Assembly (NCBI RefSeq): GCF_000016745.1
Contig: NC_009483.1
Location: 2,340,001-2,372,000, forward strand
DNA length: 32,000 nt
Origin: Geotalea uraniireducens Rf4
GTDB taxonomy: Bacteria > Desulfobacterota > Desulfuromonadia > Geobacterales > Geobacteraceae
Direction: 5' to 3'
In this document: positions 5,821 to 31,310 of the stretch, one piece after another
How the letters are laid out: every line of letters starts with the position of its first letter
How positions within the stretch are numbered: position 1 is the stretch's first letter
Position numbers and translations under genes: made by a program
The notes under the pieces: model-generated
What the model was told of the DNA's origin: nothing
The model's input: the letters and a program-made list of their open reading frames with translations, nothing else
Database searches by the model: none

Positions 5821-5955
5821 TTAGCCACGAATGACACGAATAAACACGAATATTTTTAACCCCTTGTTAAGTCTTGACTCGTCACCGATCTTGTGAGTGT
5901 CTTCTGCATCACATGAGCCTGTATATTCGTGCAAATTCGTGAAATTCGTGGCTAA
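5821..5955. repeat. 135-bp element with 32-nt terminal inverted repeats, each arm carrying three CACGAAT heptads at 9-10 bp spacing
   Basis: Left arm 5821-5852 is TTAGCCACGAATgaCACGAATaaaCACGAATA. The reverse complement of the right arm 5924-5955 is TTAGCCACGAATttCACGAATttgCACGAATA. Heptads are conserved and spacers are free. The element is intergenic between pfaD and the PAS kinase. Confidence 0.75.
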
Positions 5956-15348: not shown

Positions 15349-15542
15349 CAGTAGTGTCCGTAAGAAAATTACACTGACTCACCAGCACATTGCACCCTCC
15401 CCCAGCCCCTCCTTTAGGCCCTTTGGGTCCATCAAGGGAGGGGAGCTTTAAAGTCCCCTCGCCCCTTGTGGACCCAAATTGCGGGCCTAAAGGAGAGGGC
15501 TAGGGTGAGGGGAAGTGCTGACGGAAACCGACACACTAACAG
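15349..15542. mobile_element. Degenerate MITE-like element of the CAG..TGTCCG family enclosing a roughly 138-nt imperfect palindrome (15383-15520)
   Basis: Left end CAGTAGTGTCCGTAAG resembles the right end of the 31050-31268 element (CAGTACTGTCCGGTTAG). The reverse complement of the right end is CTGTTAGTGTGTCGGTTTCC. The interior is a nested GC-rich inverted repeat (GCACCCTCCCCCAGCCCCTCCTTTAGGCCC ... GGGCCTAAAGGAGAGGGCTAGGGTGAGGGG). No intact target-site duplication. Confidence 0.45.
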
Positions 15543-16607: not shown

Positions 16608-16690
16608 GATAGACGATAATACTTAACCATCCGCGAGGGTGGGGCGGAAAGCCTAAAGGGTCTCCATGAGATAGCCGGGTTGCCGAAATA
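16608..16690 (+). promoter_or_regulatory. GEMM-I class cyclic-dinucleotide riboswitch aptamer, copy 1
   Basis: CGAUAAUACUUAACC, then hairpin CCAUCC-GCGA-GGGUGG with a GNRA loop, then GGCGGAAAGCC, then GGGUCUC...AUAGCCGGGUUGCCGAA. This matches the conserved core of c-di-GMP-I/GEMM-I as I remember it (ACGCAAAGCC ... GGGUUACCGA in Vc2). Confidence 0.8.
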
Positions 16691-16833: not shown

Positions 16834-16916
16834 GGTACACGATAATACTAAACCATCCGTGAGGGTGGGGCGGAAAGCCTATAGGGTCTCAAGTCAGACA
16901 GCCGGGTTGCCGAAAT
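16834..16916 (+). promoter_or_regulatory. GEMM-I class cyclic-dinucleotide riboswitch aptamer, copy 2
   Basis: CGAUAAUACUAAACC, then CCAUCC-GUGA-GGGUGG, then GGCGGAAAGCC, then GGGUCUC...ACAGCCGGGUUGCCGAA. It starts 226 nt after copy 1 and is nearly identical in all conserved positions. Confidence 0.8.
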
Positions 16917-16945: not shown

Positions 16946-17087
16946 ATTTGCCCATTTACCGGATGTGGCCGAAAAAAGTAACTCGTGAACAAGGTTCGGA
17001 TCACCCCATGACGGGCAGTGGGATTGAGCCGGAAGGACAACAAAAATTGCTGTGCCGTCTGGCGCAGCAAGGAGCAAAGGAGAAACA

Positions 17088-19139
17088 ATGAGAGAACAGA
17101 TTAAAAGAACGTTCGCCGGCATCACCGTACTCTGTCTTGTTGCCGTCGGTCTTATGCTGACCGGCTGCGGCAGCAGCGGCGGAGGTCTTTCATCCCAGGT
17201 CGTGAGTGGCGTTGCTGCGGTCGGCGCTCCACTTGCCGGGCAGGTAAACCTTAAGGACGCCTCTAACCCTCCACAGGAAAAGTCGACCGTTATCGGTAAT
17301 GACGGTACGTTTGCCTTCGATGTCACGGGCATGAAAGGCCCGTTCATCCTGCAGGCGTCAGGGCGCGCCAACGGAACGAATTACGCGCTTCATTCCTTTG
17401 CCGGCGGAACGGGCACAGCCAACGTCAACCCGCTCTCAAATGCGGCGGTAGCCAGTGCTGCAGGGGTTGACGACCCGTCACAGGTCTTCGCGAATCCCGA
17501 CCCGGTCACGCTCCAGAAAATCGAGTCCAATCTCCAGACAGCTGTCGCCACTATCCTGTCCAAGCTCCACCCGCTCCTGAAGCAGTACAGCGCAGACAAC
17601 TCCGATCCGATCAAGGGGCACTACACCGTTGACCACACCGGTCTCGACGGCATGCTGGACAATGTGAAAATGACCCTATCCAACGGGGTTCTTACGATAG
17701 TGAATGCGAAAACCGGCGCAGTCATTTTCAGCGGCAAGATCTCCGACATCAATAACTGGAATTTTTCGGACGACGATAATAACATTCCCGCCCCGCCTGC
17801 CGTGCCCGCCGCTCCAGCCGGCTTGACCGCCACCGGCGCTGCCGGCCAGATGACCCTTTCCTGGAACGCCGTCAGCAACGCGACCTCGTACAATGTCTAC
17901 TACTCGACCACTGGCGGTGTCTCTGCCGCCAATGGGACAAAGATCGCCGGGGCCACCAGTCCTTATGTCCAGAGCGGCCTTACCGCAGGAACCACCTATT
18001 ACTACATCGTTACGGCAGTGAACAGCGCCGGCGAAAGCGCTGCCTCGGCCCAGGTTTCGGCGACCACCAATGCGACGCCGACACCGACGCCGACTCTCCC
18101 TGCTGCACCGACCGGAGTAATGGCCACAGGCGGCACCAACCAGGTGACCCTCTCCTGGAGCGCCGTCAGCAATGCTGCCTCGTACAACATTTACTGGTCG
18201 ACCAAGACAGGCGTCACGACGAGCAACGGGACAAAGATCAGCGGTGCCATGAGTCCTGCGGTTCAGGCGGGGCTTGCTGCCGGCACGACCTATTACTACA
18301 TCGTTACGGCAGTGAACAGCGCAGGCGAGAGCACGCCTTCCGTCCAGGTTGCGGCGACCACCGTCACTCCGACTCCCGCTCCGACCGTGCCGGCTGCCCC
18401 GTCCGGCGTGACCGCCACCGGCGGCGCCAAGCAGGTGACGCTGTCCTGGCCGGCAGTATCCGGCGCAACCTCCTATAATGTCTACTGGTCTACCGCTTCC
18501 GGCGTAACGACCGCGAACGGCACGAGAATCGCCGGGGCCACCAGCCCTTATGTTCATACCGGTCTTTCCGCAGGGACCAGCTACTATTACATAGTCACGG
18601 CTGTAAACGGCGCGGGCGAGAGTGCTCCATCAACTCAGGCGACCGCAACCACCAATGCCCCACTTCCGGCCGTTCCTGCTGCACCGACCGGTGTGACCGC
18701 CACAGGCGGCGCCAATCAGGTGTCTCTCTCCTGGTCGGCGGTCTCCGGCGCGACATCGTATAACGTTTACTGGTCTACGACTTCAGGGGTTACGACCGCT
18801 TCCGGGACAAAAATCGCCGGGGCCACCAGTCCCTACGTCCAGACCGGGCTTGCCGCCGGCACCGCCTACTACTACATCGTAACGGCGGTGAACAGCGCCG
18901 GTGAGAGCGCCGCGTCGGCAAAGACCACAGCGACTACCGCCGCCCCTGCAATCGACGGTGCAGCGCTTTATTCACAGTACTGCGCCGGGTGTCACGGAGC
19001 CCTGGCATCGTCCAACAAGAGGAAAACGACCGCTTCCAAGATCCAGTCGGGGATCAGCGGCAATGTCGGCGGAATGGGATATCTTTCCTCCCTCTCGGCG
19101 GCACAAATTCAGGCCATTGCTACGGCTTTGAATTTCTAG
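17088..19139 (+). CDS. Lipoprotein with an N-terminal beta-rich region, four tandem fibronectin-type-III repeats and a C-terminal monoheme cytochrome c domain
   Basis: ATG at 17088 follows AAGGAG.AAAGGAGAA; the track start at 17052 is less likely. Lipobox LTG-C. Four repeats carry the LSW.AVS.A.SYN.Y.S ... Y.V.GL.AGT.YYY.VTAVN.AGES pattern. CAGCH heme motif at 18981-18995, with a downstream GGMGYL candidate Met ligand. Confidence 0.85.
   Translation: MREQIKRTFAGITVLCLVAVGLMLTGCGSSGGGLSSQVVSGVAAVGAPLAGQVNLKDASNPPQEKSTVIGNDGTFAFDVTGMKGPFILQASGRANGTNYALHSFAGGTGTANVNPLSNAAVASAAGVDDPSQVFANPDPVTLQKIESNLQTAVATILSKLHPLLKQYSADNSDPIKGHYTVDHTGLDGMLDNVKMTLSNGVLTIVNAKTGAVIFSGKISDINNWNFSDDDNNIPAPPAVPAAPAGLTATGAAGQMTLSWNAVSNATSYNVYYSTTGGVSAANGTKIAGATSPYVQSGLTAGTTYYYIVTAVNSAGESAASAQVSATTNATPTPTPTLPAAPTGVMATGGTNQVTLSWSAVSNAASYNIYWSTKTGVTTSNGTKISGAMSPAVQAGLAAGTTYYYIVTAVNSAGESTPSVQVAATTVTPTPAPTVPAAPSGVTATGGAKQVTLSWPAVSGATSYNVYWSTASGVTTANGTRIAGATSPYVHTGLSAGTSYYYIVTAVNGAGESAPSTQATATTNAPLPAVPAAPTGVTATGGANQVSLSWSAVSGATSYNVYWSTTSGVTTASGTKIAGATSPYVQTGLAAGTAYYYIVTAVNSAGESAASAKTTATTAAPAIDGAALYSQYCAGCHGALASSNKRKTTASKIQSGISGNVGGMGYLSSLSAAQIQAIATALNF
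17806..18940 (+). repeat. Four tandem FN3-coding repeats, periods 294, 291 and 285 bp
   Basis: The YYY codon triplets start at 17997, 18291, 18582 and 18867. Repeats 1 and 2 share an identical 32-mer, TATTACTACATCGTTACGGCAGTGAACAGCGC. Confidence 0.9.
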
Positions 19140-23727: not shown

Positions 23728-23802
23728 TGGTGGGCGATGCTGGGATCGAACCAGCGACTTCTACCGTGTGAAGGTAGCACTCTCCCGCTGAGTTAATCGC
23801 CC
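23728..23802 (-). tRNA. tRNA-Val (anticodon CAC), CCA encoded
   Basis: Hand-folded cloverleaf. Acceptor stem GGGCGAT/ATCGCCC. D stem ACTC/GAGT. Anticodon stem CTACC/GGTAG with loop TTCACAC. T stem GCTGG/CCAGC with loop TTCGATC. 75 nt. Confidence 0.95.
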
Positions 23803-23843: not shown

Positions 23844-23931
23844 GGGGAGATTCAGAGCATCCGCGATAATCCAGATGCCTCTGCACAGTTTTATTCAAAA
23901 TAAAAAAATGTTATAAAGTACCGAATTCAAC

Positions 23932-23960
23932 TTGACACTGAATGGTCTGAGTTGATATAT
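23932..23960 (+). promoter_or_regulatory. Sigma-70-like promoter (TTGACA, 17-nt spacer, ATATAT) for the crotonase relic and B12 cluster
   Basis: Read directly from the sequence, about 60 nt upstream of the relic ATG at 24020. Confidence 0.45.
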
Positions 23961-24019
23961 TTCGTCGCGCTGCAGGGTTTTTTAGCCTGCTTGAAACATG
24001 ACAAAATCAGGAGAACTTC

Positions 24020-24456
24020 ATGCCGGGGCGTTTAATACTAATAAAACACAGCGTTGTCCGGTTTGGTTTTTGCTTACGTCCCGTAGGGACAGAATACTGG
24101 TAGCCGGGGAATTCATTCCCCGGTCATCCAGGCGAAATATCATCACGTCACGTACGTGACGTGGGGAAATATAGCATCTCATCCGGGGGATGAATCCCCC
24201 GGCTACATTCGAACGCCCCTAATGGGGCTTAACAACCTTGATGCACAAACCAAACCGGACAACGCTGAATAAAACATGATGAGTGGATGCCGTTGTCACC
24301 TTGAACCGGCCTGAAGCGATGAACGATCTTCTGGATCTGAAAAACGCCTGCCTCATGGAGCGGGACGCCTTTGCCCTCTTGCTTTACCACCGAAGACCAG
24401 AAAGAAGGGATGATCGCGTTCGTGGAGAACGGCCGGCACAGTTCAAAGGCGGATAA
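24020..24456 (+). pseudogene. Relic of an enoyl-CoA hydratase/crotonase-family gene. Only the N- and C-terminal ends remain, with three frameshifts and a MITE insertion.
   Basis: After an AGGAGA RBS the ATG opens MPGRLILIKH. After the MITE, a second frame reads VDAVVTLNRPEAMN...ERDAFALL. A third frame reads FTTEDQKEGMIAFVE. The original frame then ends RPAQFKGG-stop at 24454-24456. LNRPE and F.TEDQKEGM.AF.EKR.P.F.G are the classic crotonase N- and C-terminal signatures. About 200 internal codons are missing. Confidence 0.7.
24049..24267. mobile_element. 219-bp palindromic MITE with 21-bp perfect terminal inverted repeats and a 9-bp target-site duplication
   Basis: TIR CAGCGTTGTCCGGTTTGGTTT at 24049-24069, with its exact reverse complement at 24247-24267. 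It is flanked by direct repeats AATAAAACA at 24040-24048 and 24268-24276. The interior is a chain of small hairpins (GTCCC/GGGAC, CCGGGGA/TCCCCGG, CCGGGGGA/TCCCCCGG, GCCCC/GGGGC) around a central palindrome CACGTCACGTACGTGACGTG. There is no ORF. Confidence 0.85.
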
Positions 24457-24466
24457 ACAGTGAACA

Positions 24467-24578
24467 GTAAGAAGTAAAAAGTAAGAAGTAAGAAGTAAGA
24501 AGTAAGAAGTAAGAAGTAAGAAGTAAGAAGTAAGAAGTAAGAAGTAAGAAGTAAGAAGTAAGAAGTAAGAAGTAAGAG
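24467..24578 (+). repeat. Heptanucleotide microsatellite (GTAAGAA) x16
   Basis: 16 contiguous 7-nt units. Unit 2 is GTAAAAA and the last is GTAAGAG. It lies in the leader between the crotonase relic and cobO. Heptads of opposite polarity follow at 24590-24613 (CTCACGA CTTACTA CTCACGA). Confidence 0.95.
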
Positions 24579-25238: not shown

Positions 25239-25643
25239 ATGGCTGAGAGAAAACTGAGGGTACTTGTTGGAAAACCGGGCCTTGACGGTCACGACAGGGG
25301 GGCGAAGATCATTGCCCGCGCTTTCAGGGATGCGGGTTTCGAGGTGATTTACACCGGCCTTCATCAAACCCCGGAGCAGATCGTCTCTGCCGCAATTCAG
25401 GAAGACGTCGACTGCGTCGCACTTTCCATCCTATCCGGCGCGCACAATACCCTCCTCCCCCAGGTTTGCGAGCTGTTGAAAGAGAAAAAGGCGGATGATA
25501 TCCTCGTCTTCGGCGGTGGAGTCATCCCTGATGACGACATACCGGGACTGAAGGCCTCCGGGATTCGAGAAGTATTCACTCCAGGCACGTCAACCGAAGA
25601 TATTGTCGCCTGGGTGCGCAACAATGTGAAGCCGCGCGCATAA
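25239..25643 (+). CDS. B12-binding small subunit/domain of an acyl-CoA mutase (methylmalonyl- or isobutyryl-CoA mutase type)
   Basis: 134 aa. The DxHxxG cobalamin-ligand motif occurs within [22 protein letters not shown] and GGVIP are also present. Strong RBS AAAGGAG. Confidence 0.85.
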
Positions 25644-25667
25644 AGTACGGCTACATGATAATAATGG

Positions 25668-25736
25668 TAGGGGCGCTGCCCCGTCGCGATTGTATCTGGT
25701 GATACGGAGAAGTGCGACGCGGGTTTCGCTCCTATA
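25668..25736. repeat. GC-rich imperfect inverted repeat (REP-like hairpin)
   Basis: TAGGGGCGCTGCCCCGTCGCGA at 25668-25689, versus the reverse complement of 25713-25736, which is TATAGGAGCGAAACCCGCGTCGCA. It is intergenic between the mutase subunit and meaB. Confidence 0.5.
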
Positions 25737-25794
25737 GTTTTATAGGGGTAGTGCTATTGTATAAGAAATTGCGTCTGGAAAGGGAAGTGCGCTC

Positions 25795-26745
25795 ATGTCT
25801 TTAGCTGAAAAGATACTTGATGGCGATATCCGCTCAGCGGCGAGGCTGATGCGGGATATAGACGACGGTCTCAGAAGTGCCGTCGAGGAATTGAAAACCC
25901 TTTATCCCCATACGGGCAAAGCGTTTATCATCGGTTTGACCGGTCCTCCCGGTGCAGGGAAGTCGACCCTCGTCGACCAGCTCACAGCAGCCTATCGCAA
26001 AAGGAATAAGAGGGTGGGGGTTGTGGCGATTGACCCGAGCAGTCCCTTTACCGGCGGCGCCATTCTCGGCGACCGGATCCGCATGAACCGTCATGCAGAT
26101 GACGAAGGGGTGTTTATTCGCAGCCTGGCAACTCGCGGTTATCTGGGCGGCCTGTCCCGTTCCACCGGCGACGTGGTCAATGTCATGGATGCCATGGGGA
26201 TGGATGTCATCATCATCGAGACGGTCGGGGTCGGCCAGGACGAGATCGACATCGTCCGCATGGCCCATACCACTGTAGTTGTCATGGTGCCGGGGCTGGG
26301 GGACGATATTCAGGCCATCAAGGCCGGTATCCTCGAGATCGGCGATGTTTTCGTGGTGAACAAGGCTGATCGTGAAGGGGCTGACCGGACAGTGCGCGAG
26401 TTAGCCAACATGCTTGATATGAAGCCGAGCAAGAGCGGCGAATGGCAGGCGAAGGTGCTGAAGACTGAAGCACAGCGCAATGTCGGCATTGAAGAGATGG
26501 TAGAGGAAATCGAATCACACAGAAGCTATCTCTTTTCTTCCGGCGCAATCTCGCATCTGCTGGAGGAAAAAAATGCCAACCTGTTCATGGAAATCCTGAA
26601 GGATCGTCTCTTTGCCGAGGTCTTCGGCCATATCAAGATGAACGGCAGGTTCCGCGAGATAGTGGACGGGATGATGACCCGGCAAAAGGACCCGTACAGC
26701 GCAGTCGACGAGATTCTGGCGGAGAGGTTCGGCAAGGGGGCATGA
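25795..26745 (+). CDS. meaB: MeaB/ArgK-type G-protein chaperone of B12-dependent mutases
   Basis: 316 aa. P-loop GLTGPPGAGKSTL. VAIDPSSPFTGGAILGDRIRM. IIETVGVGQ. NKAD G4 motif. Confidence 0.88.
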   Translation: MSLAEKILDGDIRSAARLMRDIDDGLRSAVEELKTLYPHTGKAFIIGLTGPPGAGKSTLVDQLTAAYRKRNKRVGVVAIDPSSPFTGGAILGDRIRMNRHADDEGVFIRSLATRGYLGGLSRSTGDVVNVMDAMGMDVIIIETVGVGQDEIDIVRMAHTTVVVMVPGLGDDIQAIKAGILEIGDVFVVNKADREGADRTVRELANMLDMKPSKSGEWQAKVLKTEAQRNVGIEEMVEEIESHRSYLFSSGAISHLLEEKNANLFMEILKDRLFAEVFGHIKMNGRFREIVDGMMTRQKDPYSAVDEILAERFGKGA

Positions 26746-31002: not shown

Positions 31003-31049
31003 ATTGCACATTATAGCGGGTGCGAGCTGTCGAATGTTCTGATTTGATG

Positions 31050-31268
31050 CAGCGGTGTCCGGTTAGTAACTTGCATAGGCTGATATTTTGTAAAAAAAGG
31101 GTTTCTGTAGGGGCGCGGCCTTGGCCCGCCCGCCTTTGACTGGTGTGAATAGAGCAACAAGGTCGGATTTGACGACAAGGGCGGGCCAAGGCCGCGCCCC
31201 TACGATGGAAAACAAAAGGCAATATAGGACGTTGGCCTTATGTGCAAATATCTAACCGGACAGTACTG
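31050..31268. mobile_element. Second 219-bp MITE of the same family, with a 9-bp target-site duplication
   Basis: Left end is CAGCGGTGTCCGGTTAG. The reverse complement of the right end is CAGTACTGTCCGGTTAG. It is flanked by GATTTGATG at 31041-31049 and 31269-31277. The interior holds a perfect 25-bp inverted repeat, GTAGGGGCGCGGCCTTGGCCCGCCC, at 31107-31131 and 31179-31203. Confidence 0.8.
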
Positions 31269-31310
31269 GATTTGATGGGTTGTTCACGCATTTTCCCATA
31301 GGTACAAGAT

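What the first reader, a model, noticed from the sequence alone, without database searches (positions are those of the whole stretch)
24040..24276. 219-bp palindromic MITE with perfect 21-bp TIRs and a 9-bp target duplication, inserted into a gene start
The element spans 24049-24267. Its ends are CAGCGTTGTCCGGTTTGGTTT and the exact reverse complement. AATAAAACA is duplicated on both sides, which is the signature of DDE-transposase-mediated insertion. Removing the element and one duplicate restores a continuous 5' coding sequence for the crotonase relic (MPGRLILIKHDE..). The interior has no ORF and consists of four small GC hairpins around a 20-bp palindrome. The whole element could fold into a long hairpin. 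A second copy of exactly the same length lies at 31050-31268, and a degenerate one at 15349-15542. No transposase gene is present in the window.
Basis: seen in the sequence. Interest (0 to 1): 0.7.

Follow-up and report, generated by a model that had tools for sequence, protein, structure and literature searches.

The report
IS4-type MITE, recently inserted
This is a real 219-bp non-coding jumping element (a MITE moved by an IS4-family transposase encoded elsewhere) that very recently landed in a dead gene upstream of a vitamin-B12 operon; it is an ordinary case, almost certainly of the 'Chunjie' MITE family already described in a sister Geobacter species.

Summary
Window 24049-24267 is a 219-bp element with perfect 21-nt terminal inverted repeats, flanked by an exact 9-bp duplication, AATAAAACA.

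Three metagenome contigs 98% identical to the window, and one about 95% identical, carry the exact empty site with one AATAAAACA. The insertion is therefore recent and strain-specific.

The same 26-nt end, CAGcgtTGTCCGGTTAGGnnnTTGCAT, bounds 1.32-1.35-kb insertion sequences. These encode a 387-393-aa IS4-family DDE transposase and also make 9-bp duplications. It also bounds dozens of 70-250-bp elements with their own 9-bp duplications in Geobacteraceae, other Desulfuromonadales, Nitrospirota and anammox Planctomycetes.

- **Second element (31050-31268):** a sibling with the same ends, length and duplication size but an unrelated interior. It is not a copy.
- **Third element:** real but old. 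It ends at 15520, not 15542.
- **Transposase:** none lies in the window.

Size, 21-bp repeats, 9-bp duplications, folding energy and host clade all match the published Chunjie MITE of Geobacter uraniireducens Rf4. I could not obtain Chunjie's sequence to prove identity.

One side finding: the interior carries two inverted copies of a two-hairpin module that matches Rfam RF01687 (Acido-Lenti-1 RNA).

This is a known kind of element, of low to moderate interest.

The parts
24040..24048 (.). Left copy of the 9-bp target-site duplication, AATAAAACA
   Evidence: A single copy is present at the empty site in L129-131 and L125.
24049..24267 (.). MITE A: 219 bp, non-coding, near-palindromic
   Evidence: Absent from strains 98% identical to the window. 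Family copies occur elsewhere with other duplications.
24049..24073 (+). Left terminal inverted repeat (21 nt perfect, 25 nt at 96%). Matches the IS4-type IS end consensus CAGcgtTGTCCGGTTAGGtatTTGCAT.
24243..24267 (-). Right terminal inverted repeat
24077..24123 (-). Two-hairpin module. Full-length match to Rfam RF01687 (Acido-Lenti-1) at 32.8 bits, below the gathering score of 37.
24144..24163 (.). Central perfect 20-bp palindrome, CACGTCACGTACGTGACGTG. Conserved across A-family copies.
24183..24229 (+). Second, inverted two-hairpin module. RF01687 match at 36.3 bits (gathering 37); the relative in L098 scores 38.3.
24268..24276 (.). Right copy of the 9-bp target-site duplication, AATAAAACA
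24020..24456 (+). Crotonase (enoyl-CoA hydratase) relic interrupted by A at codons 7-9. Residues of about 30-218 are deleted and the frame is shifted. It is a pseudogene in the empty-site strains too; G. daltonii has the intact 259-aa gene.
23932..23961 (+). Sigma-70-like promoter candidate, TTGACA-18-TATATT (11 of 12, with TG), conserved in relatives. If it is used, A lies in the 5' leader of the cobA / B12-binding / meaB operon.
   Evidence: Consensus match only; the function is inferred.
31041..31277 (.). MITE B (31050-31268, 219 bp) with its 9-bp duplication GATTTGATG on both sides. It has the same end family as A, an unrelated interior and a 25-nt perfect internal inverted repeat.
   Evidence: Absent from L125. 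Present in two Logan samples.
15349..15520 (.). MITE C: old, degenerate member, 172 bp. The left end is CAGTAGTGTCCG(-)TAAG... Most of the right repeat is lost to a 27-bp deletion. Flanks ACGTAGACA and ACGGAAACC match at 6 of 9 positions.

Best explanation
Window 24049-24267 is a non-autonomous DNA transposon (MITE). It carries the roughly 26-nt ends of a 1.3-kb IS4-family insertion sequence but no transposase gene.

The proposed mechanism is as follows. A DDE transposase made from a full-length IS elsewhere in the genome, or recently present there, binds the two inverted ends and excises the element. It then integrates the element by staggered cuts 9 bp apart, and repair of those cuts creates the AATAAAACA duplication. 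Targets are A+T-rich.

This copy landed very recently in codons 7-9 of an already dead crotonase gene. The site is about 80 nt downstream of a probable promoter and 360 bp upstream of cobA, so the insertion is probably neutral.

Elements B and C are earlier insertions of sibling subfamilies that use the same ends. The family is most likely the published Chunjie MITE family of Geotalea/Geobacter.

**Shown:** the anatomy, the empty sites, the shared ends with transposase-encoding ISs, and the 9-bp duplications of both.

**Inferred:** mobilisation in trans, cut-and-paste chemistry (by analogy with Tn5/Tn10 of the IS4 family), neutrality, and identity with Chunjie.
For: **Anatomy**
- Perfect 21-nt inverted repeats plus an exact 9-bp duplication.

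**Empty sites**
- Exact empty site in L129, L130 and L131 (98.2% identical) and in L125/L126.

**Distribution of the ends**
Hits concentrate in Geobacteraceae, Desulfuromonadales, Nitrospirota and Brocadiales.
- Of 49 short end-pairs in those loci, 14 have perfect 9-bp flanking repeats, 8 have one mismatch and 7 have two.
- The 10th flanking base agrees in only 5 of 22, so the duplication is exactly 9 bp.
- The duplications are 67% A+T against 48% for the loci.

**Autonomous partner**
- Full-length elements L002 5967-7290 (duplication TGGTTGACT) and L032 69-1412 (duplication GGAAAGAAT), plus L026, L031 and L094, have the same ends.
- L002 and L032 encode 387- and 393-aa proteins that hit PF01609 (E 4e-20 and 4e-18) and NF033592 'IS4 family transposase' (195 and 201 bits; cut-off 115).
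- They carry the Y-2-R-3-E-6-K motif, YKLRWNIEiFFGWWK (read).

**Other copies of A**
- Full-length A-family copies at other loci: L158 at 99.5%, L147/L152 at 92%, L052 at 88%, L057, L082, L095, and G. argillaceus L100.

**Match to Chunjie**
- Published Chunjie features are 178-235 bp, 21-bp repeats, 9-bp direct repeats and RNA folding of -98 to -130 kcal/mol (PMC3184786, PMC10969869). One Rf4 copy is exactly 219 bp (PMC6042816).
- A folds at -124 and B at -116 kcal/mol as RNA.
- The host is a Geotalea relative: MeaB is 85% identical to that of G. daltonii.
- An A-type interior module occurs in Rf4 itself at NC_009483:3835061-3835106.
Against: - No transposase with these ends was found in the window or in the roughly 60 kb of closely related contigs examined. 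A currently active source in this genome is therefore unproven.
- No full-length IS was recovered from a Geobacteraceae genome. The intact ones came from Nitrospirota, Brocadiales, Desulfovibrionales, Gemmatimonadales and an unclassified deltaproteobacterium.
- MITE interiors show no similarity to the IS interior, so they are not simple internal-deletion derivatives.
- The Chunjie sequence could not be obtained, so family identity rests on matching descriptors.
- The one Rf4 fragment I could read lacks a recognisable terminal repeat on its right side.
Confidence: 0.93

Rival explanations
1. A REP/REPIN-type element moved by a RAYT (Y1/HUH) transposase rather than by a DDE enzyme. The interiors of A and B each hold an inverted pair of 'GTAG + GC-rich palindrome' units, which is the classic REP design.
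For: GTAGCCGGGGAATTCATTCCCCGG and its inverted partner occur in A. GTAGGGGCGCGGCCTTGGCCCGCCC and its partner occur in B. These four are the only such sites in the 32-kb window. RF01687 members in Lentisphaera sit in tandem arrays 74 nt apart, which resembles REP clusters.
Against: REP/REPIN transposition makes no target duplication and needs no long terminal inverted repeats. Here the mobile unit is bounded by the IS4-type ends, and the 9-bp duplication sits exactly outside them. The empty sites lack the whole 219 + 9 bp, not just the inner pair. Twenty-two MITEs with the same ends from other genomes lack the GTAG units. No RAYT gene was seen.
Confidence: 0.03
2. An in-situ remnant of a full-length IS that inserted here and then lost its transposase gene by internal deletion. 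On this reading the short element itself never transposed.
For: The ends are identical to IS ends. Some MITEs are known to arise this way.
Against: The same 219-bp interior is found at other loci in other genomes and metagenomes with different 9-bp duplications (L158 TAATATAAT, L147 AAAAAATAT, L052 GATCTTCTT, L095 GGATGAAGG). The interior has no similarity to any IS interior. The site is empty in strains 98% identical, which leaves little time for insertion followed by a precise 1.1-kb deletion.
Confidence: 0.02
3. A functional structured RNA gene or cis-regulatory leader (Rfam RF01687 'Acido-Lenti-1' sRNA) that merely happens to be flanked by repeats.
For: Two full-length matches to RF01687 lie just under the gathering score, at 36.3 and 32.8 against 37. 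L098 passes at 38.3. Hairpin 1 keeps pairing through two compensatory changes. The element lies downstream of a strong promoter-like site in an operon leader.
Against: The module occurs on both strands inside one palindromic mobile unit. Presence or absence is strain-specific, and the operon exists without it. Compensatory change in a DNA palindrome can also arise from DNA-level processes. There are no expression data. This would be an added property of the MITE, not an alternative to it.
Confidence: 0.02

Closest known systems
Chunjie MITE of Geobacter (Geotalea) uraniireducens Rf4 (Chen, Zhou, Li & Xu 2008, Genetics 179:2291; described in PMC3184786, PMC10969869, PMC6042816)
   Same: - Size: 219 bp here. 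Chunjie is 178-235 bp, and the template copy NC_009483:2632106-2632324 is 219 bp.
- 21-bp terminal inverted repeats and 9-bp direct repeats.
- No coding capacity.
- Very stable fold: -124 and -116 kcal/mol as RNA, against the published -98 to -130.
- Insertion inside an operon or leader.
- Host in the same clade.
- An A-type interior module is present in Rf4.
   Different: Sequence identity with Chunjie could not be checked, because neither the paper nor the Rf4 copies were retrievable. Here at least three subfamilies with unrelated interiors share the ends. In the reviews I could read, no autonomous partner is named for Chunjie, whereas an IS4-family partner is identified here.
IS4-family insertion sequences (DDE_Tnp_1; for example IS10/Tn10, IS50/Tn5, IS4Bsu1)
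   Same: The parent IS has a DDE transposase with the YREK signature, 9-bp target duplications, a length of about 1.3 kb and terminal inverted repeats of about 26 nt. The nearest annotated relative in plasmids is 'IS4-like element IS4Bsu1 family transposase'.
   Different: Identity to IS4Bsu1-like proteins is only 32%. No sequence match was found to any solved structure, including Tn5 transposase. The ends begin CAG rather than the CT typical of IS10 and IS50 (my own knowledge). The element in the window encodes nothing.
Rfam RF01687, Acido-Lenti-1 RNA motif (Weinberg et al. 2010, PMC2864571)
   Same: The two-hairpin module in each half of A aligns over all 46 model positions. The family seed contains a G. 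uraniireducens Rf4 sequence that is plainly homologous to the A module.
   Different: The window copies score 0.7 and 4.2 bits under the gathering threshold. RF01687 is annotated as an sRNA of Acidobacteria and Lentisphaerae with unknown function. Here it is an internal, doubly inverted part of a DNA transposon.
REP/REPIN elements mobilised by RAYT transposases
   Same: Inverted pairs of GTAG + GC-rich imperfect palindromes lie inside A and B.
   Different: The mobile unit here has long terminal inverted repeats and a 9-bp target duplication, which REPINs lack. No RAYT was seen.

Membership tests
Prokaryotic MITE | Short (under about 600 bp) with no coding capacity | tested here: met
   219 bp. 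The longest overlapping ORFs are 53-54 aa and run into the flanks.
Prokaryotic MITE | Terminal inverted repeats | tested here: met
   21 nt perfect, 25 nt at 96%.
Prokaryotic MITE | Target-site duplication of fixed length immediately outside the repeats | tested here: met
   AATAAAACA on both sides of A and GATTTGATG on both sides of B. It is exactly 9 bp in 22 other copies.
Prokaryotic MITE | Multiple dispersed copies | tested here: met
   A-family copies in L052, L057, L082, L095, L098, L100, L158, L147, L149 and L141 at different sites. The copy number in the source genome itself is unknown.
Prokaryotic MITE | Insertion polymorphism (filled versus empty orthologous sites) | tested here: met
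   Site A is empty in L129-131, L125 and L126. Site B is empty in L125.
Prokaryotic MITE | Ends shared with an autonomous IS that makes the same duplication | tested here: met
   L002 and L032 carry perfect 9-bp duplications. The 26-nt end consensus is the same for 10 IS ends and 52 MITE ends.
IS4 family (parent element) | DDE transposase of the DDE_Tnp_1 / IS4 type with the Y-2-R-3-E-6-K motif | tested here: met
   PF01609 at E 4e-20. NF033592 at 195-201 bits against a cut-off of 115. YKLRWNIE(I/T)FFGWWK read.
IS4 family (parent element) | Transposase shown to act on these ends | not testable with these tools
   Requires a transposition assay.
Chunjie MITE family | 178-235 bp, 21-bp repeats, 9-bp direct repeats | tested here: met
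   219 bp, 21 nt and 9 bp, compared with PMC3184786 and PMC6042816.
Chunjie MITE family | Very stable RNA-level fold (-98 to -130 kcal/mol) | tested here: met
   -124.0 for A and -115.8 for B.
Chunjie MITE family | Sequence similarity to the published Chunjie copies in NC_009483 | not testable with these tools
   The paper and the Rf4 copies could not be retrieved. The only indirect support is an A-type interior module at NC_009483:3835061-3835106.
Rfam RF01687 Acido-Lenti-1 | Covariance-model score at or above the gathering threshold (37 bits) | tested here: not met
   36.3 and 32.8 bits for the window copies. The relative in L098 reaches 38.3. A seed member from Rf4 is homologous.
REP/REPIN | Mobile unit is the GTAG-palindrome (doublet) itself, with no target duplication and an associated RAYT | tested here: not met
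   The polymorphic unit is the whole repeat-bounded 219 bp plus a 9-bp duplication. No RAYT was found in the window.

The most novel reading that the evidence does not exclude
The conserved two-hairpin module carried twice in the element (Rfam RF01687 'Acido-Lenti-1', built as GTAG + GC palindrome like a REP) may not be filler. It may be a selected, functional cargo. It could act as a binding site for a host or transposition factor, or as an RNA stabiliser or attenuator once the MITE is co-transcribed, as it may be here in the leader of the cobA-meaB operon. On this reading a family that Rfam lists as an sRNA is a module spread by IS4-type transposition, and A and B are hybrids of REPIN-like doublets captured between IS4 ends.
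Probability: 0.15. Interest if true: 0.5.

Novelty: new member of a known kind. Interest (0 to 1): 0.27.

Why it matters
**For annotation.** The 219 bp plus one 9-mer should be masked as a mobile element. The 'gene start' it interrupts belongs to a pseudogene. The insertion is a useful strain marker, because it is absent from strains 98% identical to the window.

**More broadly.**
- The work names a plausible autonomous partner (a 1.3-kb IS4-family IS) for the Chunjie-type MITEs.
- It shows that one 26-nt end sequence serves many unrelated interiors across at least four phyla.
- It links an Rfam 'sRNA' family of unknown function to the interior of a transposon.

None of this changes how MITEs are understood.

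Tried and rejected
**Chunjie sequence**
- I tried the paper by PMC id, PubMed id and DOI. I also tried the MUSTv2 supplements and a full-text search for the end sequence (primer noise only). I searched for 'ISGur' (physics papers only). All failed.
- The G. uraniireducens locus I could reach (AP027151, L133) has no copy.
- I looked for pstB in fetched loci as a gateway to the Rf4 pst operon. None was found.

**Other searches that found nothing useful**
- Exact-protein look-ups of relic ORFs to find short contigs spanning the site: not on record.
- Logan contigs of the source strain break at the tRNA, at the heptamer repeat and inside B's palindrome, so they do not span A.
- Viral contigs: no hit to the end pattern.
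- PDB sequence search with the transposase: no hit.
- Rfam on element B: only meaningless long-hairpin (miRNA-precursor) hits far below threshold.

**Ideas considered and rejected**
- L067 first looked like an IS1595-family IS using the same ends. It is an IS1595 (1040 bp, 8-bp duplication TCACCTGA) nested inside a MITE of about 220 bp.
- I checked whether GTAG + palindrome units are general in MITEs with these ends. They are not; they occur only in the A family and in B.

Full report
**1. What is in the sequence**

Reading window 23900-24420 gives, in order:
- AATAAAACA (24040-24048)
- CAGCGTTGTCCGGTTTGGTTT (24049-24069)
- the interior
- AAACCAAACCGGACAACGCTG (24247-24267)
- AATAAAACA (24268-24276)

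The repeat finder reports the arms as 25 nt at 96%, with the first 21 perfect. It reports the 9-mer as an exact direct repeat.

The interior holds two inverted 24-nt arms at 92% (24100-24123 and 24183-24206). Each arm contains a 9-bp-stem hairpin. There are two further small hairpins and a perfect 20-bp central palindrome.

As single-stranded DNA the element folds into one long hairpin of -68 kcal/mol. This gives z = -10.9, and none of 200 shuffles folds as well. As RNA it folds at -124 kcal/mol. No ORF above 54 aa touches it.

**2. The other two elements**

Element B is 31050-31268. It is also 219 bp, with ends CAGCGGTGTCCGGTTAG... and CAGTACTGTCCGGTTAG..., and its own exact 9-bp duplication GATTTGATG. 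It shares only about 26 nt at each end with A. The interiors do not align.

Element C starts at 15349 with CAGTAGTGTCCG(-)TAAG. In the close relatives L129 and L131 the same element ends in an intact repeat, CAGCACTGTCCGGTTCGGTTTTTGCAC. In the window a 27-bp deletion has removed that repeat, so the true right end is 15520. The flanks match at 6 of 9 positions. C is present in all related strains and is therefore an old insertion.

**3. Empty sites**

MeaB (25795-26745) is 85% identical to that of Geotalea daltonii FRC-32, so the source is a Geotalea-like member of the Geobacteraceae.

Contigs from close relatives were fetched through exact-protein look-ups:
- L129 (ENA), L130 and L131 (JGI) are 98.2% identical to the window over 15.9 kb. 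Their alignment breaks exactly at the element: window 8182-24048 matches L129 2599-18480, and window 24268-24500 matches L129 18472-18704. The nine bases 18472-18480 therefore serve both flanks. The L129 sequence ...ATGCCGGGGCGTTTAATACTAATAAAACATGATGAGTGG... equals the window with A and one repeat removed.
- L125 and L126, about 95% identical, are also empty at site A.
- Site B is absent from L125, with colinear flanks. It is present in two Logan samples of the source strain.

**4. What A interrupted**

G. daltonii has an intact 259-aa enoyl-CoA hydratase immediately upstream of cobA. In the window and in all empty-site relatives only a relic remains. It consists of the N-terminal dozen codons (MPGRLILIKHDE against LPNRPIQVKHDE), a frameshift, VVTLNRPEAMN, and then the last 40 residues. 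The gene was therefore dead before A arrived, and A sits in codons 7-9 of the relic.

A strong sigma-70-like site, TTGACA-18-TATATT with TG, lies at 23932-23961 and is conserved in relatives. If it drives the cobA / B12-binding / meaB genes, A lies in their leader. No U-tract follows the hairpin on the + strand, so it is not a canonical terminator in that direction.

**5. The wider family and its autonomous partner**

I expected about 17 by chance. Hits were overwhelmingly in Geobacteraceae and Desulfuromonadales, other 'Deltaproteobacteria', Nitrospirota and anammox Brocadiales. Many lay at contig ends, as repeats do.

In those loci I found 49 short end-pairs of 70-260 bp:
- 14 have perfect 9-bp flanking repeats, 8 have one mismatch and 7 have two.
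- The 10th flanking base agrees only at chance level (5 of 22).
- The duplications are 67% A+T.

Five elements of 1320-1348 bp have the same ends. Two of them have perfect 9-bp duplications (L002, L032). L002 and L032 encode 387- and 393-aa proteins that hit PF01609 and pass NCBIfam NF033592 'IS4 family transposase'. They carry the YREK signature; L026, L031 and L094 hold tblastn matches of about 62% identity to the L032 protein.

The consensus of 10 IS ends and of 52 MITE ends is the same over 25-26 nt: CAGcgtTGTCCGGTTAGGtatTTGCAT. One end of each element was pre-selected by the search pattern, which biases this comparison somewhat.

The transposase family is large, with 4993 database proteins at E <= 1e-20. 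These sit typically on 1.3-1.5-kb stand-alone contigs. The nearest annotated plasmid relative is IS4Bsu1-like at 32% identity.

MITE interiors fall into several unrelated subfamilies, and none resembles the IS interior.

**6. Copies of A itself**

Full-length relatives occur in L052 (88%), L057 (87%), L082, L095, L098 and G. argillaceus L100.

A metagenome scan with the 21-nt end found further copies:
- L158 8445-8663: 219 bp, 99.5% identical, duplication TAATATAAT.
- L147 and L152: 92% identical, duplication AAAAAATAT.
- A 236-bp variant at one locus in six samples.

Across copies the hairpin modules and the central palindrome are conserved while the spacers vary.

**7. Relation to what is known**

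Reviews describe the Chunjie MITE of G. uraniireducens Rf4 as follows (PMC3184786, PMC10969869):
- 178-235 bp
- 21-bp terminal inverted repeats
- 9-bp direct repeats
- RNA folds of -98 to -130 kcal/mol
- 38 full and 57 partial copies

One Rf4 copy spans NC_009483:2632106-2632324, which is 219 bp (PMC6042816). Every descriptor I could test matches. The original paper and the Rf4 copies were not retrievable, so sequence identity is unproven. I put it at about 0.8.

**8. A side finding**

An E-value-mode Rfam scan of the element gives two full-length matches to RF01687 (Acido-Lenti-1 RNA):
- 24183-24229 (+), 36.3 bits
- 24077-24123 (-), 32.8 bits

The gathering score is 37. The A-family copy in L098 passes at 38.3 bits.

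The RF01687 seed (Weinberg 2010, supplementary file 183) contains NC_009483.1/3835061-3835106 from Rf4. This sequence is plainly homologous to the A module. Its flanks show a degenerate A-type element without a recognisable right repeat.

Hairpin 1 keeps pairing in 98.8% of cells, with two compensatory pair changes among 21 module copies.

Each module begins with GTAG followed by a GC-rich palindrome. B has the same design with different sequence. These four are the only such sites in the window. This resembles REP/REPIN architecture, but the mobile unit is clearly the repeat-bounded element.

**9. Verdict**

This is a genuine, recently inserted MITE that uses IS4-family ends. It is mechanistically ordinary and very probably belongs to an already described family.

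Three results go modestly beyond the literature I could read:
- a candidate autonomous partner
- the breadth of the end family across phyla
- the link to RF01687

Noticed in passing
window 24466-24577: Sixteen tandem copies of the heptamer AGTAAGA lie between the crotonase relic and cobA. The array is absent from L125 and, from where the window-L129 alignments break, probably shorter there. All Logan contigs of this strain break here.
   Followed up: partly
window 25643-25795, compared with L125 9237-10010 and L127 9225-9998: The window and its 98% relatives lack the second 257-aa enoyl-CoA hydratase gene between the B12-binding subunit and meaB. L125 and G. daltonii both have it. Both crotonase genes of this cluster are therefore lost or decayed in this lineage.
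   Followed up: partly
window 24077-24123 (-) and 24183-24229 (+); L098 2783-2828: The interior modules of the MITE match Rfam RF01687 (Acido-Lenti-1 RNA). The seed of that family includes a homologous G. uraniireducens Rf4 sequence. In Lentisphaera the members sit in tandem arrays 74 nt apart. The 'sRNA' family may be a repeat-element module.
   Followed up: partly
window 24100-24123, 24183-24206, 31107-31131, 31179-31203: A and B, despite unrelated interiors, share the same length (219 bp) and the same layout. Each has an inverted pair of REP-like 'GTAG + GC-rich palindrome' units. These are the only such units in the window. Unexplained.
   Followed up: partly
L067 2059-3326: A MITE of about 220 bp with the same ends (9-bp duplication TGTTAAATT) is itself interrupted by a 1040-bp IS1595-family IS with an 8-bp duplication TCACCTGA.
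   Followed up: yes
L014 1313-1768: A MITE nested within a MITE in an anammox genome. A 217-bp element (duplication ATTATTAGT) sits inside a 456-bp span whose outer ends have their own perfect duplication, ACTATTTCT.
   Followed up: no
window 16611-16687 and 16837-16914: Two c-di-GMP-I riboswitch aptamers in tandem lie upstream of the fibronectin-type-III protein gene 17052-19139.
   Followed up: no
window 5821-5955: A 33-nt inverted repeat (85%) built from repeated CACGAAT units, TTAGCCACGAATGACACGAATAAACACGAATAT and its partner, separated by 69 nt. Not examined.
   Followed up: no
window 23728-23802: tRNA-Val(CAC) on the minus strand lies between a ParB-like gene and the relic. Its neighbourhood diverges from G. 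daltonii, where an MCP gene sits upstream of the crotonase gene. This may be a small island boundary.
   Followed up: no
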